NCBI GenBank assembly: GCA_964016885.1
Contig: OZ024743.1
Coordinates: forward strand, 222,704,001-222,768,000
DNA: 64,000 bases
Source: Eledone cirrhosa
Taxonomy: Eukaryota
Direction of reading: 5' to 3'
This document shows, one piece after another, positions 3,794 to 38,841 of the stretch (positions within the stretch are counted from its first letter, which is position 1; each line of letters begins with the position of its first letter). Below the pieces are notes generated by a model. The model searched no databases. It worked only from the letters and a program-made list of their open reading frames with translations, and had not been told where the DNA came from. Made by a program: the position numbers and the translations under genes.

Positions 3794-3851
3794 ATACTAT
3801 GATCATTTCAATGACCGGGTTCCATATGAATCCGGTGATATCATCAGGTAT
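3794..3851 (-). ncRNA. Minimal type I hammerhead ribozyme motif
   Basis: Minus strand: ATAC-CTGATGA-[TATCACCGGATTCATATGGAACCCGGTCATT]-GAAA-TGATCA-TA-GTAT. Stem I ATAC/GTAT, stem II ACCGG/CCGGT, palindromic stem III ATGATCAT, AUA triplet. Confidence 0.7.
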
Positions 3852-5485
3852 TGGAATATAACAAAGGAATATGTAAAAAGCCATGGGTCCAAAAAATCAG
3901 AAACAGAGGGGACGGCTGGACCACTAGCTTCTCAGCCAGCCGCCCTCAAAGTGTTGGCAACCGAAAAACTACCAACGAATATCTGGTGAGGGGGCGAAGG
4001 CTTACAATGCCCTACCACCACTCCGTCAAAGAAGAAGGGGAAGAAAGAAAGAAAGGGAGAAAGAAGTGTAGTGTAAGGGTCAAACTACATTCATGTTATA
4101 AAATGCGGCAAAAAAATGCTACCCAAAGGATCTATAATGTGTGTCTGTATGGTCTAATGTGTGAACCGAAGATTGGAACGTTAAATTTATGTTGCGAGTT
4201 AAAGGATGAAATTAAATTAAATTAAAAATATTAAATTGCAAAATGGTAAATTGAAAAATAGAGGTAGCGAGATTTATTTATTTAATGAAATTACGGAGAG
4301 AGTCTTATATGAAAAAATATTTTTAGATATTAGGATGCGATATAGAGTAAAGATTTCGATTGGGAGTCCCAGCCAGCACACCCACCACCATGAGTCAGCC
4401 AGTCTCGAGTGGTATCGTCCAGCGAAAGAAATGGAAATTAATTTTTCCGAGTACTCTAGGTACATAGCTAACTTTGGCCCCAGGATCGCTAGCGGGAACT
4501 CCACAATTTCGACAGGCCATCGTCTATACCACGAATACTATTAAATCAAACATTAGGGGTTTATTTACGTGTCAGTGGAGGCATGACACAGCTAATAGTC
4601 ATGCCCAAACCTGGAGTTTGTACAAGTATAATGTGGCGGCCAAAACAGGCGGCGCGGTGGGACCGGGGCAAAGCAAGCCGCTCCGAGTAATTTCATTTAC
4701 CGAAAGAGGAGAGATTTATTTTTCCGAGCACTCAAGGAAGGCTGAACTTTCCGAGTGCCCAGCGCGCAGCCAGGAAAGGTCACCACACAAGTCGAAGGTA
4801 ACCCAGTGAAAAGTGCAAATAGGCCAAAATTATTTTAAAGTTCCAGTTAGTCCGGGTTATAGGTAGTGTGGATCTTAGGTGGGTAGGGGGCTATGAAAGG
4901 TGCATAATGACCTGAGTAAGGAAAAGTTATAAAAAAATAAAAAAATATGAAAAAATAATATAAAGATAGAATACATTGATGAAAATACATTAATAAAATA
5001 ATAAAAAATAATAAAATATACATTAATGAGATAGAAACAAATTAATAAAGGTAAATAAGAATCAATATAGATCAAGTTGTAGTAAGATAATACAAGTTGT
5101 ACATATAGAAATAGATATAGAGGATGGAGGAGATGGAATGGCAACAGGTTGTACCTAGTGTAAAGTTCAATGCGAGTCAGAAAAAGTCCTGAGGTATAGA
5201 GTAGAGAATTCAGTCCATACAATACATGTTTTAGTATAATACGTAGAGTTTTGTCGTAATCGGATTCACCCCGACAAGGAAAGTAGTATCAGGTGGCGGT
5301 AGATAAGGTGCAGAGCAGCCAAAATCCGAATGGTAAGTAGATCAGTTAATCCCATGCTGGTAATAGCTGTACACTGAAGTCAGTGCCACTGTTCAATATT
5401 ACATTTTGAAGTTAGGAGCATTATTTCTTTAGATTTGTTGGTTCATCACTGGATAGAACTGGTCATTCCAGTATGTATATATATG

Positions 5486-5546
<61 letters not shown>

Positions 5547-5552
<6 letters not shown>

Positions 5553-6173
5553 GATTTTTAATGCAATGAAATATCTATGATCATCGGCAAATCACTGATG
5601 AGGGACTTATTTTATTACATGTTATCCATGTGCAACCAGCAGTATTCTTCTCCCCATTTTTTCACATATATTTACCTAAACTGCGATTCTGTTTTTCTCT
5701 CTCTCTCTCTCTTACTGCTCCCTCGCTCTCTCTGTTTCTCCTACTTTCTTTCGCTCCCTCTGTCATGTCAGTTAACTCTTCCTCACACTTCCACTCACTC
5801 ACTCACTGTTTCTCCTCTTCTCACTTCACCCCATTCGCGACGAAATCATTTTCTCTCTTTCTCACATTTGAATTCGCTCCTGAAAGGTCTTTTTTCTAAG
5901 CGCTCATATATTCACCTAGCTTATGCTAACAGAATAACTATGAAGCTTGTTCCCTTCCTTCTACGGTTAGCTATCCTCTTTGTTGTTATCTTGTTTCACT
6001 CGCTTTACGCGTTTTAATTGTCCTAATAACTTAATTTAGTTATTATTGCACCGACGTGAGGTATATGATTTTTAATGCAATGAAATATCTATGATCGTCG
6101 GCAAATCACTGATGAGGGACTTATTTTATTACATGTTATCCATGTGCAACCAGCAGTATTCTTCTCCCCATTT

Positions 6174-6180
<7 letters not shown>
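5547..6180 (+). mobile_element. Small element with 120-bp direct terminal repeats (pLTR/retrozyme-like)
   Basis: 5547-5666 and 6061-6180 differ at one base; each contains CTGATGAGGGAC. About 390-bp pyrimidine-rich interior; flanked by (TA)n/(CA)n. Confidence 0.6.
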
Positions 6181-6242
<62 letters not shown>

Positions 6243-6273
6243 TAGAGGCATATATGGATACATATATATATAT

Positions 6274-6610
6274 GGAGGCACATGGCTGAGTGGTTAGAGC
6301 ATTGGCCTTGCAATCGAAAGGTTGTGAGTTCAATTCACAGACCGGGTGATGTGTTGTTTCCTTGAGCAAGACACTTTATTTCACATTGCTCCAGTTTACT
6401 CAGCTGTAGAAATGAGATGATAGGGACTGGGGTCCCTATCATTCCACTGCAAAGTGGTCGTGGAGGTGCCACGGAAAAAAAAGCACCCAGCACTCACTGT
6501 AAATGAGGTTGGTGTTAGGAAGGGCATCCAGCTGTAGAAATCAAGCCAGAATATGTTCCTGTCCCACCCTTGCAAGCAGGGAAAAGCGGATGTAAAATGA
6601 AATGATGAAA
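6274..6610 (+). mobile_element. tRNA-derived SINE family 2 with RTE-type 3' tail
   Basis: TGGCTGAGTGGTT A box, GAGTTCAATTC B box, core CCTTGAGCAAGACACTT, ending in CTTGCAAGCAGGGAAAAGCGGATGTAAAATGA like the RTE terminus. Confidence 0.85.
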
Positions 6611-6727
6611 ATGAAATGATATATATACATATATATATATATATATATTGTGTGTGTGTATATATATATATATAATATATACCTACATACATATATACAT
6701 ATATGTGTGTATATATATTTATACATA

Positions 6728-6759
<32 letters not shown>

Positions 6760-6818
6760 CATATATATATATATACACATATATATATATACACACACAC
6801 ACACATATATATATATAT

Positions 6819-6849
<31 letters not shown>

Positions 6850-6851
6850 AA

Positions 6852-7186: not shown

Positions 7187-7252
7187 ATATATATATATAT
7201 ATCATCATCATCATCATTTAATATCATATATATATATATATATATATTTTTT

Positions 7253-7472
7253 TTTTTTATTTTATAGAAGGAGCTTCTACAGGACTGGTACTGTTTCGTT
7301 CAGATGAAATCTTCAGGAAGCTGGGTGTGACACCCAGCTTCCTGAAGATTTCATCTGAATGAAACAGTACTAGTCCTGTAGAAGCTCCTTCTATAAAATA
7401 AAAAATGTTTACTCTGCCATGTATTGAGTACCTTACTTACTGTGGTTATCCCCGACTCAACCCGGGACCTAC

Positions 7473-7473
<1 letters not shown>
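7253..7473. mobile_element. Penelope-like/retrozyme terminal fragment: 153-bp palindrome with a hammerhead motif on each strand plus a unique tail, in (TA)n
   Basis: 76-bp arms around 7329 with 2 mismatches. Plus strand CTGAAGA 7342-7348, GAAA 7361-7364, GTC 7373-7375. Tail GTATTGAGTACCTTACTTACTGTGGTTA is shared with the 35.3 kb and 38.7 kb copies. Confidence 0.65.
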
Positions 7474-7521
<48 letters not shown>

Positions 7522-8596: not shown

Positions 8597-10648
8597 CATC
8601 ATCATCATCATCATCATCATCGTTTAACGTCCATGTTCCACGCTTGCATGGGTTTGGACGGGAGTTTTCCCACTTGAGGCAAGAGTGGTTGTCTTGCTCG
8701 CATAGGACTGTCTGGCAGGTTTTCTACGGCTGGATACCCTTCCTAACACCAACCACATTTACAGTGTGGGACTGGGAGGTTTTTACCGTGTTGCCTACAC
8801 GGCCACATTACAGCGTGGACTGTGTGTTTTTTTGTCGTGACACCTACACGATCTCATTTGTTTCGGCCTGGGTGTTGTGGCACCAACATAACTTTACATT
8901 GAAAGGGGCGGTGTGGATGGGGTGGGGTGGTGGGACGGGGGTGTATTTTGTTAGAGATGCCTACTGACTGTAGTAGGTTTTACTTTGTATTTAGGTAAGG
9001 CGGGTCTTCTCTATTACTGAGTACCGCCAAAGGTCTCGGTCCAGTGACATTGTCTTGGAGAGGTGTAAGTGTGTGAGGTCGGAATTTATCAGCTCGTCCC
9101 AGGTTTTTCTGGGTCTGCCTACTCCGTGGCTACCATCTATCTTTATTGCCCTGCACTTTGTTATACAGCTGTCGTCTTTCATGCGCATCACGTGACCATA
9201 CCAACATAGCCTTCTCTCGAGTAAACAACATCTGATCCCTCTTATTTCTAATTTTTACCTTAGTTCGTTTATGCTTTGCCGTTCACGTATATTACTATTA
9301 CACATCCAGCGGAGCATGCAAGCTTCGTTCCTCTCTAGTCTGCGTATATCCTCTGCACACAATGCCCAGGTCTCACTGCCATGCAACATTGCTGTTCGTA
9401 TGCAGGCATCATACAACCTGCCTTTCATTTTTAGGGAGAACCCTTTAGCGGCTAATAGTGGTATAAGCTCTCTGAACTTTTTCCATCCAGTTCTGACTCT
9501 AGCTACTGTACTTTCAGAGCACCCTCCCCCACTGCTGATTTTGTCACCCAGGTAACGGAAGCTGTCCACTATTTCTATAGAACCCTCTGCGCAATTGAAA
9601 GAGCTAGTATTTTGTGGGCACTTGCTGCTACTTATTGCACCAGATCACCAGCCACATGTAAAATCTGTGTTCTTAGTTAGCTTACCTGTGATCCCACTAC
9701 ATCTTTTATGCACCCATACTTTGCATTTGGGACATAAAATGGAGTTTCTACCTACTCCTTTCCTACACACTGAGCATGGCCATTTCCCGGAAGGGACCAG
9801 CGCCTTATTTTCTTTCCTACAAACTAGAACTTTAGTCTTAGCGAGGTTAATTTTAATGCCTTTTGATTCTAGGCCGTGCTTCCATGTTTGGAATTTCTTC
9901 TCTAGCTCGGCCATTGATTCAGCTATGAGCGTTAGATCATCTGCGTATAGGAGTTCCCATGGGCAGCCGGTCTTGAACTCCTCTGTTATAGCCTGAAGGG
10001 CAATAATAAATAGTAGGGGGCTAAGAACAGAGCCCTGATGGACACCAACTTGTACGCTAAACTCTTCACTATATTCGTTGTTAATTCTAACCTTGCTGAC
10101 TGTTTCTTTATACATGGCTTGTATAGTTCTCACAAGCCATTCGTCAACACCTAGTTTTCTAAGAGCCCACCAGATAATGGAACGGGGGACTCTGTTGAAG
10201 GCTTTCTCCAAGTCGACAAAAGCTAAGTATAGGGGTTTACTTTTAGCTAGGTACTTCTCCTGTAGTTGTCGTACAATGAAAATAGCATCTGTGGTACTTT
10301 TGCCTGACACAAACCCGAACTGCATTTCATCTAGATCAATTCTCTCTCTGATTAGTTGCGCTATTACTTTTTCCGTGACCTTCATGACCTGGTCGATTAA
10401 TTTAATGCCTCTATAGTTACTCCTATCTAGGGCGTCTCCTTTACCCTTGTAACAGTTAACGATGATGCTGCTACGCCAGTCCTTCAGAATAACCCCATTC
10501 TGTATGACTTGGTTTACTATCCGGGTGACCATGGTGTGTCCCACCGTTCCAGAGGCTTTCAGCATCTCAGCAACTATTTCCGAAGGCCCAGCCGCCTTAC
10601 CCGTCTTCATATCTTTGATTGCCTTACTTATTATACTACCTTCGACTA
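8597..10648 (-). mobile_element. RTE-clade LINE, 5'-truncated, frameshifted
   Basis: RT motifs KGKGD..NYRGIKL, QFGF, FVDLEKAF, GVHQGSVLSP, YADD, FRYLG, HGSETW, GRPRKTW; about 400-bp 3' UTR; (GAT)n tail. Confidence 0.95.
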
Positions 10649-11429
10649 ACATCTTGTTGTGTGCAATGCCAGGTCAGGTGACCATGTCTTGCTCATACAA
10701 AACCAATTTTAGCTTGGTTTCTACAACTGGGTGCCCTTCCTAGCACCAACCTCATTTACAGTGTGTACTGAGTGCTTTTTGCTATGACATCTACACAACC
10801 ACTTTACAGTGTGGGCTGTGCATTTTTTGCCATGTTGCCATCATGACCACTTTACAGTGTGGGCTTGAGGCTTCACTGGATGTATGCTTCAGTTTGTCCT
10901 CATGGGAGATATATGGGAGTGAGTGGGGTGGTACATACTGTATATATGCTTCACTCTCGGCCTGGGCCAAAGGAAGTCTGGTCTTCTATAATACTGCGTA
11001 ACGCCAGAGATCTCGGTCCTGTGCCATCGCCTTTGAGAGGTGCAACTGTATAAAGTCAGCTTCTATCACCTCATCTCAAGTCTTCCTGGGTCTCTCCACT
11101 CCACAGCTTCTATCGGTACTTTACCTGGTTTTCTCAGTTATTATTTATAGTGATTGACTATTCTTATAGTCTTTTACATTGGGACAATTACATTTCAAAT
11201 CTGTGTGTGTGTAATGTGTATGTAGTGTATATGTATGTACAACAAAAATAATATCATTTACATTTATACATACATGTAAATGTAGTTGTCTAATTAATAT
11301 ACATATTTCATGAAGCTACTTAATTATATATTTTCTTTTTAAAAAAAATTATACATGATGTTAGATAGGTATTTTGCATATAACCAAGGAAAATTGATAG
11401 ATTTCAGTTTTTAATTTAAGTGTATGTAC

Positions 11430-15621: not shown

Positions 15622-16115
15622 TTAGGAGATGAGTTTGTAATCAGGATTCCATTCTGTTAGCATGCCAATATAGGAAGAAATCATTCCAAGGAGACCCAGT
15701 ACTCCTGGGGAAAGGTTAACTTGACGTAACATGGCCATTGACAAAGGTAAGTCTGAGGTATTACGTATTAGATCAAATAATATTGGTTTGTTTTTCAGCA
15801 AACTATAAACATACAGTTGTAATCCAGAGCAATTCTTTATAGTTTCTTTGTCAGTCGCACACTGGAGCTGGTAAAGATCCTTTCCAATACCGAACATAAT
15901 ACTTGCCAACCAGAACTGGGCAGCTAACTCAGAAATCCTAGAACGGTTGATCTTTACAACACCAACACGATCCAACCAAATCATATTATCAAACAGCAGA
16001 AACAAAGCGCTATTAATCTTCACCAAAGAAACCAATGTTCTCAAGACTACATCATCAATGTGGAAAGCCTTAAATGTACTGTTTAACACTTCAAAACTCT
16101 TCCCAAAACGAAACA
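15622..16115 (-). CDS. PEX11: PEX11 exon 3 (terminal)
   Basis: ttcag|TG TTT CGT TTT GGG, encodes (M)FRFGKS...LFLLFDNMIWL...FWLASI...DLIRNTSDL...GVLGLLGMISSYIG...KLIS*, the typical PEX11 C-terminal half. Confidence 0.93.
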
Positions 16116-17707
16116 CTGAAAAATATAAGAAAAAATTAAAATTGATGTTATTTCAAAATTTTTTTTTTCTTATTATTTATTTCTCTAGTCATGTATAAAT
16201 TTAAAATACTAGGATTTTTTTCAACACGCTGACACTGTTGCGACACATGGCCATTTAAATCTGGCAGAGCTCATTTATATTCAGTTCTGAACACAGTCAA
16301 TTTCAGAGAGAGAGAAAAAGATATATAGAAGAGGAATTGACCCTAGTTCCAGACTAGGTACTATATTTATTGAAAGGATGAAAGGCAAAGTTAATTTTGG
16401 TGGCATTTGAACTCAAAGTGGAAAGAGCTGGAACAAATATCACAAAACGATCTATCTAATGTGCTAACGACTCTGCCAATTTGCTACCTTAAATCTTTCC
16501 TTGCGATATTTCTGATGAAAGCCACTGCCTATGATTTTCAAACAATCTTGATAATAAACAAGAATTATTAAGTTCATGTTTGGAGTATAGCAAAATAAAA
16601 GTTCTTACATAAAATGATAATGATGGAAGGTTTCAATTAAATATGAACATGACTTAATAAAGCTTCTCACGTAAAATTATGATGGAATGTTTTTAGATAA
16701 ATATGTATGGACCTGTAACTCCCGCGGGAGTCCTAGAGGCATCATATTGATATACAGTATTTCTTAGGGCATTTTGAAATCTGACAGAGCCCATCATCTC
16801 TCCAGGCTTGAATACAGCAGTTTTTTTCTAGAGAAGGATAGAGAGTTAGAGAATGGAAGTGAGAAAGAATCGATCCCAGTACTTGATTGGTACTTTTTTT
16901 ATTGATCTCGAATGGATGAAAGGCAAATCAAACTCGGCGGGATTTGAACTCAGGGAGCAGAGAGCTGAAATGAATACAGCAAAGCATTCTATCCGATGTT
17001 CTAACAACTCTGCCTATTGCACCAATGTAAGCTATATCTGAAACCAAGTATACAAGAAAGAGTTATACGTTCTACTGGGAAGAAGATTTTATCATCGTCA
17101 CTCTTAAAAGCAAAATGTCAGCTTTCAATCAGTAAATAAAGAGTTACGTCCCTTGAAGAGCTCATTTGTCATCTTTGGTAAATAGTAGATTGTTTCAAGG
17201 TGGCGAATTGGCAGAGTCGTTAGAATGTTTTGCAGTGTTCGTTCCAGTTCTATACGCTCTGAATTCAAATCCCGCCGAGGTCAACTTTGTTACTTTTTTT
17301 TATTGACCTTGAAAGGATGAAAGGCAGTGTAGTACTGGGGTCGATTCCTCACTTTCATTCTCTCACTCTGAAAGAAATCTGCTGTATTCAGACCTGAAGA
17401 GAAGTTGGACCCTGCCAGATTTTAAAATGCCCTTGAAACGCCGTATGTCAATACGTCGTCCCTACGACTCCTTCAGAGGTTACAGGACCATGCATGCATA
17501 TTGTTTCAGTGATTTTTGTTAATTTATTGTTCCTGTTATTTTTGGACAGCATTATTCAGGTTGACCTGAGCAGACTAATCCTATGAACAAATTGCTCCTG
17601 CTTCTACGATACAAAGCAATATATTTTAGCCCCTTTATGACCGCATTTGTAATGAAATAAACTATTTTAATTACAAATAAGTATGTTTTGAAACAGCAAG
17701 TGAGTTT

Positions 17708-17911
17708 GAAATTAGAAATGGAAGCTTTCGCTGTATTTTTTTTACTAAAGAAATTTTAGCCTGATAGTGGGGTTTAGAACCCTCTAAGAAATGTAAAAAA
17801 AAGTACATCAATACTCATCGTTTTCCATTTCTTAGAGGATTCTAAACCCCACTATCAGGCTAAAATTTCTTTAGTAAAAAAAATATGGCAAAAGCTTCCA
17901 TTTCTAATTTC
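17708..17911. mobile_element. Foldback MITE-like inverted repeat (86-bp arms) in PEX11 intron 2
   Basis: 17708-17793 is the reverse complement of 17826-17911 with about 4 mismatches; 32-bp spacer. Confidence 0.8.
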
Positions 17912-18671: not shown

Positions 18672-19409
18672 CTAGAAATAAAGACAAACATAATAATATA
18701 CATAAATATATATATAGAAAACCCGCCAGACAGTCCTATGCGAGCAAGACAACCACTCTTGCCTCAAGTGGGAAAACTCCCGTCCAAACCCATGCAAGCG
18801 TGGAACATGGACGTTAAACGATGATGATGATGATACAATATATTAACAAATGGAAACTATATTTATAAAACCATATTTATTTCATTATACATATTTCAAG
18901 GGCCGCCAAGGTAAACTATGGTGCGCTTTCATCAGATAAAATATAATATAGGTTAGTTTTATAAATAAATATTGACATACCCTTAAAAAATGCAACCATT
19001 CTGGTTGGAATCTCCTGGATAGTGGAGTTATTAGATTTATTGTTGGTTTATTATGCAAATTAGTGTCGGAAAGGTTTAAATAACAGTATATTTAAATTAA
19101 GCCGTTGGAATAGGGAAAAAAGAAAGAAAGAGAAAAAAGGGGAAAAAACGAAAGAGAGAATAGCGTAATTTTGAGAGAAGAGGCGAAGAAGTAAAAATAG
19201 CGTGGATGAATACCGTAGCATGAATAAACAATAATAAAGATAAGTTGAAGAATTTTATCTAATGTTTAATTAATACATTTGATTAAATGCTTAATTAATA
19301 ATTTATCAATTCAATCCGTAGTTTAAATGTTTAAATGTGTATGTTAGATTATTAAAGTTGAGACCTATATATTATTAAAGAATATATATTAAAATATATA
19401 TATATATAT

Positions 19410-19548
19410 GGGTCCAGAATTAGCTGTCGAAACGGCTTGAGCTCAGCCGTCGGGGTCTTACTTGTTCCTATTACCCACTCTACTACCCTAAGTATTGAGT
19501 ACTTTGGTGCGTTATGGTCCACCTGGTTCCTTACCACATTTCCTTCGT
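19410..19548 (+). mobile_element. Truncated Penelope-like terminus with the 3' half of a hammerhead
   Basis: GAAACGGCT-TGAGCTC-AGCCGTC (stem III plus GUC, 19429-19451), then AGTATTGAGTACT. The 3' end TGGTCCA..GGTTCCTTACCAC..TTCCTTCG recurs at 2951-2983. Both copies sit in (TA)n. Confidence 0.5.
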
Positions 19549-21892: not shown

Positions 21893-23549
21893 CATCATCA
21901 TCATTGTTTAACGTCCATCTTCCACACTTGCATGGGTTTGGACGGGAATTTTCCCACTTGAGGCAAAATTGGTTGTCTTGCTCGTGGTTGTCTGGCGGGT
22001 TTTCTACGGCTGGATGCCCTTCCTAACACCAACCACGTTTACAGTGTGGACTGGGAGGTTTTTACTGTGTTACCTACATGGCCACATTACAGCGTGGACT
22101 GTGTTTTTTTGTCGTGACACCTACACGACCTCATTCATTTGGTACCAACATAACTTTACATTGAAAGGGGTGGTGTGGATGGGGTGGGGGTAGTGGGACG
22201 GGGGTGTATTTTTATTAGAGGTGCCTACTGACTGTAGGTTTCGCTTTGTACTTAGGCAAGGCGGGTCTTCTGTATTACTGTGTAGCGCCAAAGATGTCGG
22301 TCCAGTGACATTGTCTTGGAAAGGTGTAAGTGTGTGAGGTCGGAATTTATCAAGTCGTCCCAGGTTTTTCTGGGTCTGCCTACTCCGTGGCTACCGTCTA
22401 TTTTTATCGCCCTGCACTTTTTTATACAGCTGTCGTCTTTCATGCGCATCACGTGACCATACCAACGTAGTCTTCTCTCGAGTAAACAACATCTGATCCC
22501 TCTTATTTCTAATTTCTCCCTTAGTTCGTTTATGCTTTGCCGTTCACGTATATTAATATTACACATCCAGCGGAGTATGCAAGCTTCGTTCCTCTCCAGT
22601 CTGCGTATATCCTCTGCACACAATGCCCAGGTCTCACTGCCATGTAACATTGCTGTTCGTATGCAGGCATCATACAGCCTGCCTTTCATTTTTAGAGAGA
22701 ACCCTTTAGCGGCCAATAGTGGTATAAGCTCTCTGAACTTTTTCCATCCCGTTCTGACTCTAGCTACTGTACTTTCAGAGCACCCTCCACCACTGCTGAT
22801 TTTGTCACCCAGGTAACGGAAGGTGTCCACTATTTCTATAGAACCATCTGTGCAATGGAATGAGCTAGTATTCTGTGGGCACTTGCTGCTACTTATTGCA
22901 CCAGAGCACCGGCCACATATAAAATCTATATTCTTAGTTAGCTTACCTGTGATCCCACTACATCTTTTATGCACCCATACTTTGCATTTGGGACATAAAA
23001 TGGAGTTTCTGCCTACTCCTTTCCTACACACTCACCATGGCCATTTCCCAGATGGGACTGGTGCCCTATTTTCCTTCCTACAAACTATAACTTTAATCTT
23101 AGACAGGTTAATTTTAAGGCCTTTTGATTCTAGGCCATGCTTCCATGTTTGGAATTTCTTCTCTAGTTCGGCCATTGATTCAGCTATGAGCGTTAGATCA
23201 TCTGCGTATAGGAGTTCCTATGGGCAGCCGGTCTTGAACTCCTCCTGAAGGGCAATAATAAATAGTAGAGGGCTAAGAACGGAGCCCTGATGAACAACTT
23301 TTACGCTAAACTCTTCACTATATTCGTTGTTAATTCTAACCTTGCTGACTGTTTCTTTATACATGGCTTGTATAGCTCTCACAAGCCATTCATCAACACC
23401 TAGTTTTCTAAGAGCCCACCAGATAATGGAGCGGGGGACTCTGTCAAAGGCTTTCTCCAAGTCAACAAAAGCTAACTATAGGGGTTTACTTTTAGCTAGG
23501 TACTTCTCCTGTAGTTGCCGTACAATGAAAAGAGCGTCTGTGGTACTTT
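21893..23549 (-). mobile_element. RTE-clade LINE, 5'-truncated, in PEX11 intron 1
   Basis: Same family as 8.6-10.6 kb: EKAFDRVPR, HQGSVLSP, PHD-like finger, FRYLGDK, RRLRWYGHVMR, same 3' UTR. Confidence 0.95.
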
Positions 23550-26033: not shown

Positions 26034-27189
26034 CCAGGCTTGGAACAGACTTTAACCTATTTTTAACCTTCTGTGACAAGAAACAGTTGGCAAGAATCTT
26101 ATTGTTTTATTCAGCTAAAATGTTCAGCTGCAGTATTGAAAGTAGAAGAGCAAACATGGCTGCCTTCATTGCAAACAGCTAACTGTCAGCCTTCAAGCAA
26201 AGAATACAATGATGTACCTAGACCAGTAGTAGCGATAATGCTACAGAATTAGTTTTTCTAGTGCATTCTATCCTAACTGCATTCTTGAATAAAATACAAT
26301 TTCACATTACTCCTTCTACCAGGAGTTGCAACCAGCAGATAGTATTGGCAATGGAAAGGCCAATAGGAACATGGTTTCCTTGGTCCAATCTGACGATTGA
26401 CTCCTTTTCTTAATTTTATTGAGGTCCCAATAATAATTATATCTAACAATAGCACAAGACAGTAAATTAAAATATCCTCCGTACCTGTTCAGAATTTCAA
26501 GTACTTTGTTTCACAAAAGCACCTACTTTTTATCATTATTTAGGTGCATTACTGGTACTTATTTTATCGATCCCGTAAGGATGAAAGGCAAAGTTAACCT
26601 CGGCGGGATTTGAACTCAGAATGGCAAGGGCCATAACTCTATACGCCATGCTTTGACACATAGAGTTACGGCCCTTGCCATTCTGAGTTCAAATCCCACC
26701 GAGGTTAACTTTGCCTTTCATCCTTACGGGGTCGATAAAATAAAGTACCAGTAATGCACTGGATAATTGCTGGCCTTGTGCCAAACGTAGAAACTATTAT
26801 TTAGTATAAGATTGTTCCACCAATTGTTAGTGTTAAATCTGTGTGTGGGATCTATATATACCACTCTCTGATCATGGATTAGTCCACCATGTGATCCCAG
26901 CGGATATAGTGTTTAATGTGTGTATATGTGAGAGCTGTATGAGTTTACAGTGTGTGTGGCCTGTATTTACCACTCACTGTTTAAAGGTCAGTCCACCTCA
27001 TGGACAGGATGGAGAAGACATTGCCCCGAAGGATGTGAAGGGAGATGCAGTAGAACAGCCACTCCGCCTCACAGGGCTCACACGTGCAGGTAGTCAACTC
27101 TGCTCCGATACCAGTGAAACATATGCACACACTATTGGCTATCAAGTCTGAATGTTTCTCTCTTTCGAATATTGTATAAGTCTGAAGTA

Positions 27190-29182: not shown

Positions 29183-30884
29183 GTCACATATGTGTGTATC
29201 AAACGACCATCACAATCTCCCACTATTTTAAATATTATTTGCTTACTTTACGAACCAACCATGTCAACTAACACAACAAGCCACAGACATTTTACCAATA
29301 TTGCAATTATAAACACACACTGCTCGAAATCTCGTGTTTTCTCGTTTCTTATTTCCTTTTCTTACTCTGCCTCTGCCTCTCTTGTATTTCATACTCTTTC
29401 GTCTTTTTCTTTCAGTCTCCCCTCTCTTTTATTTAATAGTCTCTCTCTATCTCTATCATTCAAAGTGTTTCGTTTCTCTCTTTCTCTCTTTTATTTAATA
29501 ATCTTTCGCTTTCTCAGTCTGTGTACTTTTCTGACAGCCTCCCCCTCACTCCCTCCCTCTCTCTCTCTCATTCTCATACTCTAACTCTCTTCTCCTCACT
29601 ATTTTTCACTTTCACTTTTCCTGCATTATTTTTTTCCTCTCTCCTAATAGAATTATGTTTCTTCCACTAATTCTTTCGCTATCTTTCTATTCTGCTTTAA
29701 GAATTATCATTAGTTGGTAGATTAGGAGTGGCATCTTGACGTTTAGATTCGTTCAAAACACTAAAAACCACAGAAAAACCATTTTCACAACTAACGCGAG
29801 ATGGGTGCAATTGTAAAACTTTACGCGATTTTCTCCCTTGTCCCCAAATTGCTGGCTTTGTACTTTCGGGTCTCGAATAATCGCCCTCCTCCACCACCGC
29901 TTATTAAATTTTGCTAATTTATCTCCGACGAAATTTACAAAGGTGATATCTATCTGTCTTTCACACAGTCTCTCTCACACTCTCTCCCTCTCTTTCTCTC
30001 TCAACATTTCGTATGGGAAAAATAGTTTCGGTTTATGAACATTTCGAGTGACGAACGGCCTTCAGGAACGAATTAAGTTCGTGCACCGACGTTCAATGGT
30101 ATATAATTTCTTGTGGTCATTATTAAATATATTGCTCAACATCTTTGCTTCATAGAAACATTGTAGAATTATCCAACATGGTTTCTGATTTAGGCACAAA
30201 GCCAACAATTTTTTTTGGGGGGGGGGGGGGGGGGGGGTAAATCGATTAAATCGAACCCAGTGTGTGATTTGTGCTTATTTTATCAACCCCGTAAAGATGA
30301 AAGGCAAAGCTAACCTCGGCGGAATTTGAACTCAGAACGTAAAGGGCCGTAATTCTATTCCACCGATTCGCCCAAATGAACTATGTAGTAGAAACTACAG
30401 ACTTATCAATTTTCCCAGTATGGTGAGAGCAAGAAGTGTCAAAAACTAGGTTTGTCAGCTTGCCAAACTGTAAGTTGAAATTTGTGGAGAATGGGACACA
30501 TAACTGGGAGAAAAAGACACACGTTGTAGAACTAGCCTATAGGGGTGCTAAATATCCAGGCACTGGTTCAGCATAGGGGGCCATCTTGTTGCCATTCTAC
30601 TTCCTTGTAGACATCGCTAAGAAATTCACAACTGGTTGCCAATACTAACTTGTGAATGTTGGAGAATCCATTTCAAAAGCAGTAGCATAGCTAGAGGGGA
30701 GCGGTCCGTCTCGGGCGACACTTCTATGGGGGTTACATGTAGGCTATAAGCGTTCTTTTAATGCTACACTATATTATAATTGTACACAGACTAGTTAATA
30801 TATATATATATATAACTTTAAAAGTTATATATATATATAATAATAATTGTTTAAAAGTTATATATATATATATAATAATAATTG

Positions 30885-31196
30885 TTTCCCAGTGAAAAAT
30901 AGTTTAATTAGGAATAAGTATAAATTAGTAATAAGTATTGGTTAGTATTCAGTTTTAGTTTTAAGTTTTTGCCGGTTGCGCATGTTTAATGCTTTTCAAA
31001 AATAATTTTGAGATAGAGCACTCGTGATGTTTGCTCTAATCTTAGAGCAAACATCACGAGTGCTCTATCTCAAAATTATTTTTGAAAAGCATTAAAAATG
31101 CGCAACCGGCAAAAACTTAAAACTAAAACTGAATACTAACCAATACTTATTACTAATTTATACTTATTCCTAATTAAACTATTTTTCACTGGGAAA
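30885..31196. repeat. Near-perfect 312-bp palindrome (155-bp arms, 2-nt loop)
   Basis: Symmetry axis between 31040 and 31041; one mismatch seen (GCATGTTT vs GCATTTTT). Confidence 0.95.
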
Positions 31197-31227
31197 AATT
31201 TGTCAGCATTTTCTTTTCCTTTTCCTA

Positions 31228-31283
<56 letters not shown>

Positions 31284-31285
<2 letters not shown>

Positions 31286-33125
31286 CGATTTAGAGACGTA
31301 TGACATAGATAATAACTGGAATTTCTTACGTGACAACTTGCTGCAGACTACTGATGAAACTTGTGGCTGGAGCAGAGCTCCAACCAGACAGAGAGTGACC
31401 TGGTGGTGGAACAGCACAGTAGATAAGGCCATTAGAGACAAAAGACTAGCATGGAAGGCTTGGAAAAAGGGTGGGAGTAGGGAAGAATATACAGCCGCTA
31501 AGAGAGAAGCTAGACGTCAGGTGTACTTAGCACGCAGGGAGGCTAAGAGTGGGAGGTTTGCCAATGTTCTGCGACGGGAAGATCAGAGGCGTGCGGTGTT
31601 CCACATTGCAAGGCAGTGTGTCAATGCAAATCAGGATGTTGTTGGAGATAAATGTGTCCGGAATGATGCCGGTGTACTTAGTGTCACGAAAGATCAGAAA
31701 AAGGAGGCCTGGAAATGTCATTATGAGAGACTGATGAATGTGGAGAACGAATGGGAGAGAGAGAAATTACCCTTAGTAGATCCGACAGAGGGACCAGCTA
31801 TTGAGATTGACGAATATAGGGTCCAAGAGGCGATTAAGGAAATGAAAAATGGTAAGGCTGGTGGACCATCGGGAATAGTTGCTGAGATGCTGAAGGCATC
31901 AAGGGACGTAGGCACTAAACTGGTTGCAAGCATCATCAATCAGGCTATATATGGTAGTGTCATACCCAAAGACTGGTGCAGCAGTATTCTCATAAATTGC
32001 TACAAAGGTAAAGGGGATGCTCTGGAGAGGAGCAATTATAGGGGTATAAAACTGATGGATCAGGTTATGAAAGTGGCAGAAAGGATATTAGCACAACTAA
32101 TTAGAGAAAGGGTCAAACTAGATGAGATGCAGTTTGGTTTTGTGCCTGAGAAGAGTACAACAGATGCCCTCTTCTTGGTGAGACAATTGTAAGAGAGGTT
32201 CTTAGAGAAAAATAAGCCACAAAACTTACCCTTTGTTGACCTAGAGAAGGCCTTTGATAGGGTACCCCGATCTGTCATCTGGTGGTCCCTAAGGAAACTA
32301 GGTGTTGAGGAATGGCTTGTGAGGACAGTGCAAACTTTGTACAGAGGTACTCCCAGTAAAGTCAGGGTAGGAATGGAGTTTAGTGAGGAATTCCAGATAC
32401 AAGTAGGAGTACATCAAGGTTCGGTCCTCAGCCCGCTCTTGTTCATTATAGTCCTCCAAGCCATAACAGAGGAGTTTAAGACTGGCTGTCCATGGGAACT
32501 TCTCTATGCTGATGATCTGGTTCTTATAGCAGAATCAGTAGAGGAGCTAGAGAATAAATTCTGGCTATGGAAACAGCAGTTGAAAGCAAGAGGACTGAGA
32601 GTGAACCTAGCTAAGACAAAAGTGTTGATGAGTAGAAAAGAGGACAAAACTCTGATTCCGTCAGGGAAATGGCCATATTCGATATGCAGAAAAGGAACTG
32701 GTATGGTAGTGAGACATGGGTAGCAACTGCAGAGGATATGCGATGGCTGGAGAGAAATGAAGCAAGCATGCTCCGTTGGATGTGCAGTGTAAATGTGCGT
32801 GAACGACCCAGCATGAATGTGTTGAGAGAGAAACTGTGTCTGAGAGGGATAGAATGTAGTGTACGGGAGAGGAGACTGGGGTGGTATGGACATGTGATGC
32901 GCATGGAGGGTGACCGATGGGTGAAGAAGTGCCAGTTGAAGGAAGACGTGGTAGAGGTAGACCAAGAAAAAGATGGGCAGAGGTGGTGAGAACAGACCTC
33001 AGATCGTTGAAGCTCACGGTGGAGATGACGAAGGACCGTGACGAGTGGAGAGATGCTGTGCTGAATAAGACCCGTCCCACCCTTGCGAGCAGGGAAGAAC
33101 GGACGTGAAATGATGATGATGATGA
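31284..33125 (+). mobile_element. RTE-clade LINE (second family), 5'-truncated, with stop, frameshifts and an internal deletion
   Basis: TWWWN, NYRGIKLMD, QFGF, GVHQGSVLSP, YADD; deletion near 32698 joins ICRKG to YGSETW; ORF runs into a (GAT)n tail. Confidence 0.95.
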
Positions 33126-33276
33126 TATATATATATATATATAATAATAATACTATTTATAGATATGTATATAGTATAAACAACTATAAACAGGAAGGTC
33201 AGTAATTTCTTAATTACCTTATTACCAGTAAGAGAAATAGCTCAATGTATGAACATCAGTTCTTTTACAGAGCAGT

Positions 33277-33841
33277 TAAATAAATAAATTATACAATTAT
33301 CAAAGTTGTGTTCAAATCATTTAATAGCTGACAATCGTTTCTTCCAAACTCTCGTTTGGAGTCATCGGAGCATTATCAATGTTTGCACATATAGTTACCC
33401 TCCTATTCAACTGAACAATAATATAGATACATATAAATTGATGTTGTGAGCAACAGTTTCGTATTTACAGGGTGGAATGGATGTGACATATATTTTACGA
33501 GAATTGTACAATAATTGTACAAACATTCAAGTTCAAATTCAAATCAAAATTAAAATTAAAATCAAAAGCACGGAGTGGAATACATGCAACAGTTAAAACA
33601 AGGGAATAGTCCAAATATTAAAGAGGCATTGAGGAAGCAGTTTTGAGAATAAAATACGAAACTGTTGCTCACAACATCAATTTATATGTATCTATATTAT
33701 TGTTCAGTTGAATAGGAGGGTAATTATATGTGCAAACATTGATAATGCTCTGATGATTCCAAACGAGAGTTTGGAAGAAACGATTGTCAGCTATTAAATG
33801 ATTTGAACACAACTTTGATAATTGTATAATTTATTTATTTA
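33277..33841. mobile_element. 190-bp inverted repeats (185-bp spacer) with a hammerhead motif in each arm; Penelope-like
   Basis: Arms 33277-33466 and 33652-33841 with about 3 mismatches; abuts (TA)n on the right. Confidence 0.75.
33744..33795 (+). ncRNA. Minimal type I hammerhead ribozyme motif (intact core)
   Basis: AATGCT-CTGATGA-TTCCAAAC GAGA GTTTGGAA-GAAA-CGATT-GTC-AGCTATT. 8-bp stem II with a GNRA loop, GUC triplet at 33786-33788, stem I GCT/AGC. Confidence 0.78.
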
Positions 33842-35142
33842 TATATATATAACTTTTACCGTCTAACCTATGCTAGTTTGAAAGATGGACGTTAAACGAT
33901 GATGATGAAGAGTTTATATATATATATATATATAAAGAGCAATATGTATTTTTTGTGAGGGGCCAGGGGCAGCAAACTAAAGGGTTGCCCCAAGGTGGCA
34001 CACACTCTAGCTACATCACTGTACAAAAGAATAGAAAATAGGTTAGAAACACGGAAAATTTAGTTTGAGTGAAACAGCCAAGACACAGCTACTAAGTAAT
34101 CATAAAATAACAAACTAAAGGTATATTTACAGTATCTTGTACTATTTTAATCAAAAAGGTTAGCAGATATGGTGGAGTAGATAACAACAAAACAGTTCCA
34201 GAATAAAACCATATACTGTTCAGATAACCTACATGGAACAGTAGGTAAACATATGAAACCTATTGCCAACAAGTATTTTTCTTGTATAAAAGGGAGATTA
34301 TCTCTTAATGTTTCTACCTTATAAAACCACATTAGCAAAACATTCTTGAAAAGTATGAAACAACACTATAATTGCATCATATTAAAAATTAAATGTCTTT
34401 ACTCTAATACTGCAAACTTTTACTAGTAAAGACACTATAAATATTTGAATTAACAAACCTGTATTTTCTGCTAAATTATAAGAGGATGTTAAGAGCTGTA
34501 TGAGGCATAATATAATATAATGGTGTATCCCAGTGGGACAGTGACAAATAATCGTTTCTACTTTAGGCACAAGGCCAGCAATTACTCAGTGCATTACTGG
34601 TACTTTATTTTATCGACCCCGTAAGGATGAAAGGCAAAGTCAACCTCGGCGGGATTTGAACTCAGATTGTAAAGGGACATAACTATGCTGGAAAGCATGG
34701 CGTCCGACCCTCTACCGATACTGCCAATCCACTGCCCTGGGACAGTAACAAATAATGAAGAGTATTTGCAGCTATTGGGTAAAAAAAAACATTTTCTGTT
34801 ATATTGATCCTCCTCTTCCTCCTGGTCACCCTCATCACCACCATAATAACAATAATAATCATCCTCATCATCACTGCTTTTCATCTGTTTATCACGTTGG
34901 CATCATCATCATCGTTTAACATCCATCTTCCACGCTAGCAGGGGTAGGACAGGCTGTCCCTTTGTGAAAGATCAGGCTGGGGACCGTGATTTGCTCACAC
35001 ATAACTGATTTTGGCTTTGATCTCTCAATTTGGAGAAGCAGCAGCTCTACCTGGAGTGACACTCTGATCTCTGAGCTACGCACTCTAATGAATAACATTA
35101 CTCCAAATACCCTTTGAATTGAAAACTTTTAATCTGTGCTTA

Positions 35143-35183
<41 letters not shown>

Positions 35184-35260
35184 ATGTGTTACATAATAAA
35201 CAATGCAATATAATCATATTGTGTTGTTTATTATGTAATTAAATAAAATATATATATATA

Positions 35261-35418
35261 TATATTTAATATAGAAATGGCTTCTACAGGACTAGAAGTG
35301 TTTCATTTGGAGGAAATTATCATCTGTAGAAGCCATTTCTATATTAAATATTTATACTCTGCTGTGTATTGAGTACCTTACTTACTGTGGTTACCCCAGA
35401 TTTAACCTGGGATAAACA
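35261..35418 (+). mobile_element. Degenerate copy of the same hammerhead-bearing family
   Basis: About 28-bp inverted arms around a decayed core (minus strand ATGATAA...GAAACACTTCTAGTC), followed by the family tail GTATTGAGTACCTTACTTACTGTGGTTACC; in (TA)n. Confidence 0.55.
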
Positions 35419-35428
35419 TATATATATA

Positions 35429-36288
35429 CAGGGTGCAGACGATATTTGTTCGCAAGATTACTGTCTAGGAAAAAATAACAGTAGTTTTAATTTTTAAGAT
35501 ATATTTATCAAACTTGGGTCAGTTTGTCTTCATGACTTGTTCTTTCGATCTCACTCGATAAACCCGCCATTGGCTTTGATGATGGCCTCAAGGCGGCCTC
35601 GGAACCGGCTACAGGCCTTCGTCACTGTCACCCGACTTAGGCCCCTAAAGGTACCTGTGATCCTGGCCTTCAGATCGTCTTTCGTATTACAGCTAGATCT
35701 GTTGGTATCTTGTTCCACTGCACCCCACACAAAGAAGTCGAGGGGGTTGCAGTCAGGCAAGCTGGAAGGCCAGATGTCAGGTGAAGTGTGGTCAACAAAG
35801 TTCTCTGACAGCCAGGCTTGGGTCTTTCGGCTGGTATGGCAGGGCGCTGAGTCTTGCTGCCACACGTACAGCCTACCTGCTCAATCCAGGGCTTTACTAC
35901 TGCACTCAGAAGGCAGATATAGCCATCGGTGTTCAGCTTGAGGCCCTCAGGGAAGAAGTGAGGGGGCATGACGACACCTAAGACCAATGTTGTCGCTGGA
36001 AACTGTCTGCATGACTCTGGGCACGTCTTTGGATGAGACAGCGAGCCACCTGTTGTTTTGGGAGTTTCTGAAATTTCTTTATTTGTCCTCCCGGCACGGA
36101 TTCCAAGAAGAACTCCATGTCTCTTCCACAAATTTGGAGGTTCAAAATTATTCATAATCAATTATTCTGAAAATAAATAATGGAAATATGGTCCCTGTTT
36201 TTATGAAGACAAGAGTGACAACGGAAGTAAAAAAAATTTGCATAAAATTAACAGTTGAAAATTGCAAACAAATATCGTCCACAACCTG
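35429..36288 (-). mobile_element. Internally deleted Tc1/mariner transposon, DD37D (maT) type
   Basis: TIRs CAGGGTGCAGACGATATTTGTTCGCAA / TTGCAAACAAATATCGTCCACAACCTG with TA flanks. Transposase remnant QQDSAPCH...WPSSLPDCNPLDFFVWG has 37 residues between the last two Asp. Confidence 0.9.
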
Positions 36289-38171
36289 TATACACACACA
36301 CACACACACACTCTATAAGTTGTTCAGACATTTTTTTTATTACTGAAGGTAATTTCTAAACCAGATTTATCTGAAGTACCTTGTCTAATCTCTGTTAAGT
36401 TACATGGCTTAGTGGTTAGGATGCTGGGTTCATGATTGTAAGATTAGGAGATTGATTCTCTGACCAGGTGATGCGTTGTGTCCTTGAGCAAGACACTTTA
36501 TTTCATTTTGCTTCAGTCCACTCAGCTGGAAAAATAATGAATTGCTATGACACTGGTTACAAGCTGTCTTAACTTTTACCTTTCCTATGGACAACATCAC
36601 TGGCATGGAGAAGAGAGTCTGATATGCATGGGTGATGGCTGATATTCCACAAACCACTCTACTCAGGCTTGTGCCTTGGAAAGGCAAACCCATGGTCAGT
36701 ATAGGCTGACGGGGAGCCCTTTCTTTGTCTGATTTCTAATCCAGTTTCATCAGAATTAATTTGTTCATTTTCAAAGCCTGTATTGTCTGAATAACCTAGA
36801 CTATCATTGAACAGATGACAGTCTAATGCATGCTAAAGTTCTACTGTAATTTGGATACTAAAGCTGTAAATACACTGCCTGAAATAAAGACATGATGATA
36901 CCCGTCATCATAGGTTTGCTTGTTCACAAAGCTCACCTGAACAACAACGACAACGACAACGACGACGTGATAGAATGATAAACAAGTAACAAGTAAAAAT
37001 ATGAAGCAGTTTATTGATAATAAAGTGCCAATGGATAAAGATATGCAATATATATATATATATATGCCATGCATTACATATAAATGTAAAATAACAGGCA
37101 TAAAAAAAAGCAAGGGTGAGAGAGGGGGAGACATTTTTCTTGAATGGTCATGAAATAATGGTTTGTAATTTAGGCACAAGGCCAGCAATTTTGGGGGAAA
37201 GAGGAAAGTCTATTATATCACCTCCTTCCCTCAGTATTTAACTGGTACTTTATTTTTAGAGACCCTGGAAGGATGAAAGGCAAAGTCGACCTCTGCAGGG
37301 TTTAAAACTAGAATGTAAAGACTCAGAACAAATATCATGAAGTATCTTGCCCTAGGCTCTACTGATTCTGCCATCTCACCACTCTTTGTGGCCATAAAAT
37401 AGCAAGTAAGCTACTAATAGAAAAAAAAGAAAGACAAAAAACGAAGTATCTTGATCAGATCCAATAATTCAAATCAAGTCCATTTTTGGTATGGTGGTAA
37501 AAGAATTGGTTAAAATATAGCCTTGCTATAGGAACTTCCATCATAGTCAATGTCTTTCAGAGTATTTCAACTTAGTACTGCATGCTAACAATACATTGTT
37601 TAGGTAGGATTAATAATACAGTGCTCACACTTCTTACAGCAGTGAAAGGATTTAACCCTTTTGATATTAACCAGGCTGAAACTTGCCTTGGTTTTATGAT
37701 ACAGAATTGTCCCCATTTTAAAATGTTCACACTTATATTAAATTATAATTTTATATAAAAAATGTTTCATTGAGTAATGTTCCAAACATCAGCTTACTAA
37801 TGAAAAAGTTGGTTATTTTATTAAATTTCTCTAAATTATTTTTATTTTTTTCAAAATTACTTGAAGCACATGTATTTCATTTAAAATTCAATGGCAAAGG
37901 GGTGAACATATTCTGCTTACAGCAAGATGGACACTACCAGAGTGTACAGCATCAAGTAACAGGATAGTAACAATTTAACTCTTTCAATTGTGGTACTTGG
38001 ACATTCTGTGGACATAATTATATTGAATAAGGAAAGATTATTAATAAAAAAAATGTTATCAAAATTCAATGTTTTTGTATAATCATATACAAGAAGACAA
38101 GGTATCTAACACTCACACAGACAGCATTCAGATCATAGTGGCCCACAAATGAGAAAATAACTCCATGTTAA

Positions 38172-38374
38172 CCCTTTAGCATTTAAGCCAGCTGTATCCA
38201 GCTAGAATTCTCTCACCTCTTTCTGTTCAAACTGGCTGTAACCAGCCACTCATACTGATGTTAAGGTATTGTTCTCAATGTCAATATCAAAATCTCAGAT
38301 TCAATATTATGTGAGGTAAAGCCTTTACATTGAAAATATATTAGTAAATATAGAGTTATGTAAATGCTAAAGGG
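38172..38374. mobile_element. TTAA-flanked MITE
   Basis: TTAA-CCCTTTAGCATTTA...TAAATGCTAAAGGG-TTAA. Confidence 0.85.
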
Positions 38375-38646
38375 TTAAAATAGAGTCATATCAAGAGATT
38401 TATACATATTCTTATAATATGGTCACCATGTTATAGCAAAGCAAGTATTTGTTAAGCATTGTCAGAGAAAAAGTGTAGCAAATGCACACACCTTGTTGAA
38501 ACATTGTAGCCATGTTGTAGTTGTAAGAATAAGACAAGATGATGTAAAGAAATGTTGAATATGTCATAACCATAACCCATCATTGTATGTCCTGATTCCT
38601 CTTTCCATGCAATATATGTATACATATATATATATATATATATAAG

Positions 38647-38841
38647 TTTATCCCGGGTTCAATCGGAGGTAACCACAGTAAGTAAGGTACTCAATACAAA
38701 GCAGAGTATAAATATTTAATATAGCAAAGGCTTCTACAAGACTAGAACTGTTTCATTCGGGAGAAATCATCAAGAAGCCCTGATGATTTCTCCCGAATTA
38801 AACAGTTCTAGTCCTGTAGAAGCCTTTTCTATATTAAATAT
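38647..38841 (-). mobile_element. Penelope-like/retrozyme terminal fragment with an inverted hammerhead pair
   Basis: Palindrome 38712-38841 (8-nt spacer). Plus strand CTGATGA 38780-38786...TAAACAGTTCTAGTC; minus strand TTGATGA...GAAACAGTTCTAGTC. Same tail as the 7.3 kb copy; flanked by (TA)n. Confidence 0.65.

What the first reader, a model, noticed from the sequence alone, without database searches (positions are those of the whole stretch)
3794..38841. Dispersed minimal hammerhead ribozyme motifs in (TA)n-targeted, protein-less elements
Seen: hammerhead cores in the order CUGANGA, hairpin, GAAA, short palindrome, NUH at 3794-3851(-), 7283-7375 (both strands), 33330-33788 (both strands) and 38740-38813 (both strands). 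Decayed or half motifs occur at 35290-35325, 19429-19451 and 5595/6109. All lie in or next to (TA)n tracts, and they fall into at least four sequence families. Known: minimal type I hammerheads with a palindromic stem III that act as dimers mark the pseudo-LTRs of Penelope-like elements and animal retrozymes. Inference: this genome carries several non-autonomous ribozyme-bearing retroelement families; I saw no Penelope RT or GIY-YIG ORF in the window. The class is known, but these families may be unannotated.
Basis: partly seen in the sequence, partly recalled or inferred. Interest (0 to 1): 0.8.

Follow-up and report, generated by a model that had tools for sequence, protein, structure and literature searches.

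The report
Ribozyme-tipped jumping-gene ends and leader copies
The scattered hammerhead ribozyme motifs are real and are mostly short end pieces of a known group of jumping genes (Hydra-type Penelope-like elements), and in two families the pieces stop at a predicted transcription start, which likely means they are DNA copies of just the uncut front of the element's RNA.

Summary
The motifs are real (4 full hits versus 0.07 in shuffles) and belong to at least seven repeat families with hundreds to thousands of copies each. 'Non-autonomous' is mostly wrong: the 7283, 19429 and 33330 families are ends of protein-coding Hydra-clade Penelope-like elements. One has an intact 717-residue telomerase-like RT plus endonuclease ORF. 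Only the 3794 family (1.84-kb unit) and the 5595 family (515-nt unit, no closable hammerhead) look ORF-less. The class, including an octopus member, is published, and the scan noted a Hydra-type hammerhead in another genome before. What is added: (1) The 'half motif' at 19429 is half of a U3-A8 hammerhead whose loop II holds TATA-like and initiator-like sites. (2) Short copies of this and the 38740 family pile up at the predicted start, sometimes with an extra G, and not at the cleavage site. (3) In 143 of 155 inverted pairs only one arm carries the tail, which holds a conserved bulged hairpin. (4) Density extrapolates to about 100,000 intact motifs. The likely mechanism is double priming on uncut RNA near its capped end. 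No RNA data or cleavage test was possible.

The parts
3746..5475 (-). Family A: nearly whole copy of a 1.84-kb ORF-less unit that occurs in partial tandems elsewhere; ends at the short 3' end in (TA)n
   Evidence: 4 of 4 long loci show the unit junction; no Hydra protein similarity
3794..3851 (-). Family A minimal hammerhead, palindromic stem III, one mismatch in stem II
   Evidence: sequence; 27 distinct copies
5553..6180 (+). Family E: one 514-nt unit plus a partial second unit; forms arrays of up to about 12 units; only half a hammerhead core at 5595 and 6109
7253..7475 (.). Family C fold-back insertion: short arm (-) 7253-7328, tailed arm (+) 7330-7475; complete hammerheads at 7272-7322(-) and 7336-7386(+)
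   Evidence: ORF linkage
18840..19391 (-).
   Evidence: a sister family lies about 1.45 kb behind a Hydra endonuclease in 2 loci
19410..19548 (+). Family F leader-only copy: runs from the predicted transcription start to the tail end; 3' half of a U3-A8 hammerhead at 19429-19455; tail hairpin at 19477-19500
33125..33851 (.). Family B truncated and inverted 3' end: tailed copy (-) 33125-33649 with U4C-core hammerhead 33327-33371; inverted short arm (+) 33652-33851 with canonical hammerhead 33747-33791
35257..35417 (.). Decayed family G fold-back; the plus arm starts inside stem III
38646..38845 (.). Family G fold-back: tailed arm (-) 38646-38781, short arm (+) 38779-38845; each arm has one core defect; both arms stop at or just inside the predicted start
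39556..39790 (+).
2949..2986 (+). Family F tail-end fragment

Best explanation
The motifs are the pseudo-LTR hammerheads of several young Hydra-clade Penelope-like retroelement families that insert into (TA)n, and the shortest copies are likely cDNAs of the uncut 5' leader of the element's RNA. Shown: the order in a full element is ribozyme, short end, tail hairpin, tail end, start codon, 717-residue RT-endonuclease ORF, 1.1-kb 3' region, next ribozyme; copies have two fixed 3' ends; inverted pairs carry the tail on one arm only; short copies of families F and G stop at one position. Inferred: a TATA-like box and an initiator-like site in the pseudo-LTR start transcription at the ribozyme (inside loop II in F, at the 5' strand of stem I in G). 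The protein binds at the bulged hairpin, nicks both strands of (TA)n and primes twice, once on each side of the hairpin. The same site exists at the front and the back of a tandem transcript, so priming at the front yields 60-200-nt copies that run off the capped end, while priming at the back yields long, variably truncated copies. Cleavage is inferred not to be part of making these copies. In F the front ribozyme would be incomplete, so only the rear one could cut.
For: Intact ORF in a 3543-bp tandem array with RWR, DKT, YRDD, CxCx5C and CxH motifs; model pLDDT 92.6, best PDB match telomerase TERT, nearest clusters carry HTH_animal and GIY-YIG families. Full F ribozyme with U3-A8 core in 30 of 30 long copies; it is the predicted minimum-energy fold. 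Tail-anchored copies outside the bait loci: F, 26 of 40 end within 10 nt inside or 4 nt outside the predicted start, 2 go further, 1 ends near the cleavage site; G/C, 10 of 22 end at the start, 2 go further, 0 near the cleavage site. G tail-only search: 27 of 30 stop within about 10 nt of the core, with different junctions. The base before +1 is G in 9 of 76 short TA-abutting loci (hand tally of the first 100 rows) and in 0 of 100 long copies, Fisher p=4e-4; an extra G marks capped 5' ends of L1 insertions (PMC11702581, passage). One tail per inverted pair in 143 of 155. Tail hairpin in 9 families with varying but pairing stems, background 3.4%. Compensatory stem I changes in the C/G group. 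In vitro, an anole element primes at two internal sites, extends both strands and inserts equally well with a dead ribozyme (PMC11167929).
Against: No RNA evidence: the start site is predicted from motifs and copy ends only. The wall lies about the same 80-81 nt from the tail hairpin anchor in both families, which also fits a fixed-reach model. Families A, B and D show spread-out 5' ends, and several family C copies end 20-30 nt upstream of the predicted start. 3 of 12 random F copies pass the start and stop about 25 nt upstream. The extra G is in only 12% of loci and I have no control at other truncation points. The hairpin pattern was relaxed after a stricter form found 0 of 22 random hits, and the relaxed form is still absent from family E and from 10 of 13 other ribozyme copies tested. 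The tail-per-pair count includes bait loci chosen with a tail. Predicted monomer folds of A, B, C and D are not the hammerhead fold. Pfam and PDB sequence searches gave no hit for the ORF, and the endonuclease fold was not matched separately. The studied Drosophila Penelope promoter is TATA-less (PMC2377424, passages).
Confidence: 0.62

Rival explanations
1. The short copies are ordinary 5'-truncated 3' ends, and the wall is a pause or reach limit of the reverse transcriptase (RNA structure, a bound protein, or a fixed distance from the tail hairpin), not the RNA's start.
For: Same 80-81 nt spacing from the hairpin anchor in F and G; some copies pass the wall; no wall in A, B, D; no RNA data (none could be laid).
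Against: The wall falls at an initiator-like site 25-30 nt behind a TATA-like box in both families, in a weakly paired loop in F but in a stem in G; short and tailed arms stop at the same place; untemplated G in 9 of 76 versus 0 of 100.
Confidence: 0.25
2. The short fold-backs are non-autonomous families that propagate as units, cut out of longer RNA by their own ribozymes.
For: Families A and E are ORF-less tandem units; one G junction recurs among the best matches to the window copy; no ORF was found behind the three long G copies; animal retrozymes derive from Penelope-like elements (10.64898/2026.07.22.740005).
Against: Junctions differ from copy to copy when the search uses the tail only; copies begin upstream of the cleavage site rather than at it; short F copies lack half the catalytic core; B, C and F run into coding elements.
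Confidence: 0.1
3. The wall is a 3' splice site or trans-splice site, as in Drosophila Penelope where an intron ends at helix I.
For: A short pyrimidine run and AG lie at the wall in F and G; intron end at helix I in D. virilis (PMC4209133).
Against: Most copies keep the AG and no common upstream exon or leader precedes the wall.
Confidence: 0.03

Closest known systems
Hydra clade of C-terminal EN+ Penelope-like elements, including Hydra-1_Obim of Octopus bimaculoides (Craig et al. 2021, PMC8557442; section 11 and supplement part 2 read)
   Same: Single RT-endonuclease ORF, RW(K/R), DKT, CxCx5C linker, CxxC and CxH around the conserved E and N, (TA)n targets, type I hammerhead near the 3' end, partial tandems, 5' inversions and an optional tail.
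   Different: Units here are 3.5-4.3 kb with 1-2 kb 3' regions (published: mostly under 3 kb); tails of about 75-150 nt (published 30-40); none of the 25 Hydra ribozymes listed has a U3-A8 core or a loop II near 40 nt; the listed octopus ribozyme differs by eye from all families here; no tree was built.
Minimal hammerheads of metazoan Penelope-like elements (Cervera and de la Pena 2014, PMC4209133; parts 1-2 of 4 read)
   Same: Dispersed single motifs, opposite-strand pairs, palindromic stem III (A, B, D), and the U3-A8 core variant.
   Different: C, G and F have 4-5 bp stems III; the paper ascribes single motifs to truncated elements without a defined 5' end; density here extrapolates to about ten times the 9,000 reported for Xenopus (descriptors differ).
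Poseidon element of the green anole in vitro (Frangieh et al. 2024, PMC11167929; parts 1-2 of 4 read)
   Same: Two internal RT start sites that bound the tail, both strands extended, uncut RNA as template, AT-rich target.
   Different: Different clade; there the ORF starts inside the ribozyme, here about 55-95 nt behind the tail end; the one-tail-per-pair rule and a start-bounded copy class were not in the parts read.
Animal non-LTR retrozymes (PMC7229834, passages; 10.64898/2026.07.22.740005, parts 1-2 of 5)
   Same: ORF-less tandem units related to Penelope pseudo-LTRs (families A and E).
   Different: A's 1.84-kb unit is longer than the 51-972 bp reported and occurs as partial tandems; E has the size and arrays but no closable hammerhead; circular RNA untested.

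Membership tests
Type I hammerhead ribozyme | Core boxes in type I order with three closing stems, above chance | tested here: met
   met for A, B, C, D, G and long F, with the variants noted
Type I hammerhead ribozyme | Compensatory changes in stems | tested here: met
   C/G stem I pair 4 C-G 60 versus A-U 10, pair 6 G-C 47 versus A-U 44 of 104 copies; D stem II variants; relatedness not corrected for
Type I hammerhead ribozyme | Rfam hammerhead model match | tested here: not met
   none among 99 matches at E<=10 in the window
Type I hammerhead ribozyme | Self-cleavage at NUH | not testable with these tools
   needs transcription assay or RNA reads
Hydra-clade Penelope-like element | Telomerase-like RT followed by C-terminal GIY-YIG endonuclease in one ORF | tested here: met
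   717-aa ORF; best fold match TERT; GIY-YIG by motif and by cluster labels only
Hydra-clade Penelope-like element | RWK-like, DKT, CxCx5C, CxxC-E and N-CxH motifs | tested here: met
   all in F; in pieces for C and B; RWR instead of RWK
Hydra-clade Penelope-like element | (TA)n insertion, partial tandems, 5' inversion, optional tail | tested here: met
Hydra-clade Penelope-like element | Length generally under 3 kb | tested here: not met
   units 3543 bp (F) and 4251 bp (one C locus with microsatellites inside); a tendency in the paper, not a diagnostic
Hydra-clade Penelope-like element | Placement in the Hydra clade of an RT tree | not tested
   named reference proteins were not available as inputs
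Non-LTR retrozyme (family A) | ORF-less tandem unit with a hammerhead in each unit | tested here: met
   partial tandems only
Non-LTR retrozyme (family A) | Unit under about 1 kb | tested here: not met
   1842-1852 bp
Non-LTR retrozyme (family E) | Hammerhead in each unit | tested here: not met
   only half a core per unit
Non-LTR retrozyme (A, E) | Expressed as linear and circular RNA | not testable with these tools

The most novel reading that the evidence does not exclude
This genome records the Penelope insertion mechanism at base resolution. Most lone hammerheads are run-off copies of the capped, uncut RNA leader, made by double priming around a conserved bulged hairpin. One family hides its promoter inside ribozyme loop II, so that the mRNA starts in mid-ribozyme and only the downstream ribozyme can cut, which turns the hammerhead into a 3'-end former. 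This would explain the swarms of lone and opposite-strand hammerheads in animal genomes.
Probability: 0.45. Interest if true: 0.72.

Novelty: new variant of a known kind. Interest (0 to 1): 0.5.

Why it matters
The role of the hammerhead in Penelope-like elements and the origin of their tail and inversions are open questions (PMC8557442, PMC11167929). Thousands of young copies here give a predicted start site, two RT start sites, a candidate protein-binding hairpin and an intact natural protein, so the model can be tested directly. If it holds, many animal hammerhead motifs are by-products of leader copying rather than families of their own, and the ribozyme acts on the RNA's 3' end. The bare finding (hammerheads at Hydra-type element ends) is ordinary.

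Tried and rejected
Rfam scan: only microsatellite and hairpin look-alikes. Pfam on nine proteins and PDB by sequence: nothing informative for the element ORFs. Pattern search for a canonical C3 core upstream of family F: 12 matches, mostly chimeras and junction fillers; I first read this as a ribozyme-less family and dropped that when long copies showed a U3-A8 core. Family G as a fold-back unit that propagates whole: rejected on junction diversity. Cleaved RNA as template: no pile-up at the cleavage site. Family E as type II, type III or long-loop hammerhead: stems do not close by eye; a Naiad 'half core' link was not found by text search of the supplement. Sequencing runs: no RNA holder listed for family F, so no reads were laid. 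A final listing of exact motif coordinates, of short ORFs in the A unit and of tandem periods was not run; those coordinates were read by eye. No genome-wide protein search was made, so autonomous partners of A, E and the exact D and G subfamilies remain unknown.
Full report
Setting. The window is G000:C4:222704001-222768000 in a 3.0-Gb assembly of 1796 contigs. It looks like an octopod genome by its size, (TA)n load and SINE/LINE content; this is recalled likeness, not a test.

Observation. A type I hammerhead descriptor gave 4 complete motifs against a shuffle mean of 0.07 (0 of 100 shuffles reached 4), plus one-change cores at 33327-33371(-) and 38727-38781(-) and one likely chance hit at 56459. 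The 3794-3851(-) motif has a mismatch in stem II and is kept in 27 distinct copies. Rfam found no hammerhead. Each family is a dispersed repeat: first-look candidates were 2157 (B), 1493 (A), 893 (C), 1065 (D), 3467 (G), 1144 (F) and 987 (E), with the best 40 at 93-100% identity; these are not copy numbers. In 59 evenly spaced 10-kb stretches (590 kb) a slightly wider descriptor gave 27 hits against 0-4 in five shuffles; about 5 look like chance. That extrapolates to roughly 1.1-1.3 x 10^5 intact-core motifs, from ten or more families. Published figures are about 9,000 for Xenopus (PMC4209133) and up to 120,000 for axolotl (PMC7229834, section heading); the descriptors differ.

What the families are. 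Longer loci show B running into RT and endonuclease pieces about 1.4-1.6 kb upstream on the ribozyme's strand, C likewise at 1.7-2.0 kb, and F at 1.1-1.3 kb. A tandem array with 3543-bp period (five copies in the rows) holds open frames of 717 and 719 residues. The 717-residue protein has RWR, DKT, YRDD, CxCx5C, CxxC-E and N-CxH, the diagnostics given for the Hydra clade (PMC8557442 section 11). A family C protein found 588 relatives, nearly all unnamed; 89 of the 120 listed were aligned with the F protein, the model reached pLDDT 92.6, and its best PDB match is telomerase TERT. Atlas neighbours carry HTH_animal and GIY-YIG families. Pfam and PDB sequence searches were blank. Sister families of D and G lie behind Hydra endonucleases in 2 loci and 1 locus, but the window's own D and G subfamilies were not linked to an ORF. 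Family A is a 1842-1852-bp unit in partial tandems in 4 of 4 long loci, and E is a 514-520-nt unit in arrays of up to about 12. Neither matches five Hydra protein pieces by tblastn or a 120-protein profile (positive control E 6e-66). So 'non-autonomous' holds for A and E only, and E has no closable hammerhead. An Octopus bimaculoides Hydra family with its ribozyme is in the supplement of PMC8557442, so neither the clade nor its presence in octopods is new.

The half motif. All 30 long F copies have a complete ribozyme with the U3-A8 core variant, 4-bp stem I, 5-bp stem III and a loop II of about 37 nt; N7 varies between subfamilies; the hammerhead is the predicted minimum-energy and centroid fold (z only -0.8). 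Loop II contains a TATA-like box and, 25-29 nt on, an initiator-like site (motif names recalled). The window copy 19410-19548 runs from that site to the tail end, about 95 nt before the start codon. Among 104 F rows outside the long-copy baits (12 random, 37 from short-query loci, 55 bystanders, a few counted twice), only 3, all in the random set, clearly pass the initiator region, and they stop about 25 nt upstream; apparent 3-5 nt overshoots are mostly explained by the inverted arm. Genome-wide, 1695 pattern matches (about three quarters distinct) have this end within 4 nt of (TA)n, control 0, and 3251 matches are long copies. Family G behaves alike: with a tail-only query, 27 of 30 copies stop within about 10 nt of the core, with varied junctions, and the three long copies (two are duplicates) show a TATA box about 30 nt upstream. 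Anchoring on the tail in non-bait loci, 26 of 40 F and 10 of 22 G/C copies end at the predicted start, 2 and 2 go further, and 1 and 0 end near the cleavage site; in G the cDNA therefore crosses an intact ribozyme, so its template was uncut. The base before +1 is G in 9 of 76 distinct short loci (my hand tally of the 100 listed rows) and in 0 of 100 long copies (83 T, 17 C), p=4e-4. An extra G is the cap signature in L1 insertions (PMC11702581, one passage). Against this: the G is rare and lacks a control at other ends; the wall is about 80-81 nt from the hairpin anchor in both families; A, B and D show no wall; C is ambiguous.

Ends and tail. Free 3' ends abut (TA)n in 310 of 376 cases against 7.7% at random. 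In inverted pairs exactly one arm has the tail in 59 of 64 (F), 57 of 62 (C/G), 11 of 13 (B) and 16 of 16 (D) (includes bait loci and possible double counts). The tail opens with a 4-bp plus 3-bp hairpin with a two-base bulge in A, B, C, D, F, G and three further families, with different but pairing letters; background is 3.4% per 200 nt. It is absent from E and from 10 of 13 other ribozyme copies tried (some lack a tail), and the pattern was relaxed after a strict form found 0 of 22.

Mechanism. Shown: anatomy, two 3' ends, one tail per pair, the 5' wall, read-through of the cleavage site. Inferred: promoter position, cap, hairpin as binding site, double priming. This matches the anole element in vitro, which starts at two internal sites bounding the tail, extends both strands and does not need cleavage (PMC11167929). 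The inferred consequence for F is an mRNA that begins in mid-ribozyme, keeps its cap and can be cut only at the downstream ribozyme. Family B's majority core carries U4C (33 of 42), which may weaken it; this is untested.

Print. Seven searches of the open library showed no description of start-bounded leader copies, a promoter inside a hammerhead loop or this hairpin. Subscription papers, Repbase and Dfam were not searchable; I read four papers in part, four as passages, and one part plus search hits of one 59-part supplement; the supplements of the other papers, which I did not see, may bear on this. A recent O. vulgaris repeat annotation lists Penelope families and has no mention of ribozymes in its main text (PMC13282606). 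The scan's own notes hold one similar, ordinary Hydra-type hammerhead in another genome.

Verdict. The added value is the mechanistic record in the copy ends, which is likely but unproven without RNA. Interest 0.5.

Noticed in passing
window 15622-16152 (-): Open frame of 176 residues matching Pfam PEX11 (E 7.5e-28); an exon or processed copy of a peroxisomal gene.
   Followed up: partly
window 9255-10673, 22252-23031, 31140-32998, 56959-59436: Fragments of LINE-type reverse transcriptase ORFs, RTE-like by recall; not linked to the hammerheads.
   Followed up: no
window 30880-31201, 26597-26705, 17750-17869: Near-perfect fold-backs that draw spurious microRNA matches; not examined.
   Followed up: no
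L188, L190, L192, L193 (centre of each locus): Chimeras in which the 3' half of the family F ribozyme is joined to sequence of other hammerhead families, suggesting template switching between leaders.
   Followed up: partly
L286:2380 and 2975 (+), L315:3104 (-): A second U3-A8 hammerhead family with a loop II of about 45 nt, in tandem 595 nt apart in L286; possibly another promoter-in-loop case or a retrozyme.
   Followed up: no
window 5553-6180; L182, L183: Family E behaves like a Penelope-mobilised unit (fixed 3' end in (TA)n, tandems, 5' inversions) but has no closable ribozyme and no tail hairpin; its mobiliser is unknown.
   Followed up: partly
L172:7732-9998 (+), L035:6938-9601 (-): Other Penelope-like ORFs of different clades next to the Hydra copies; clade not tested.
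   Followed up: no
window 18840-19548; L100, L135, L149: Different families often sit side by side in one (TA)n tract, as D and F do here.
   Followed up: partly
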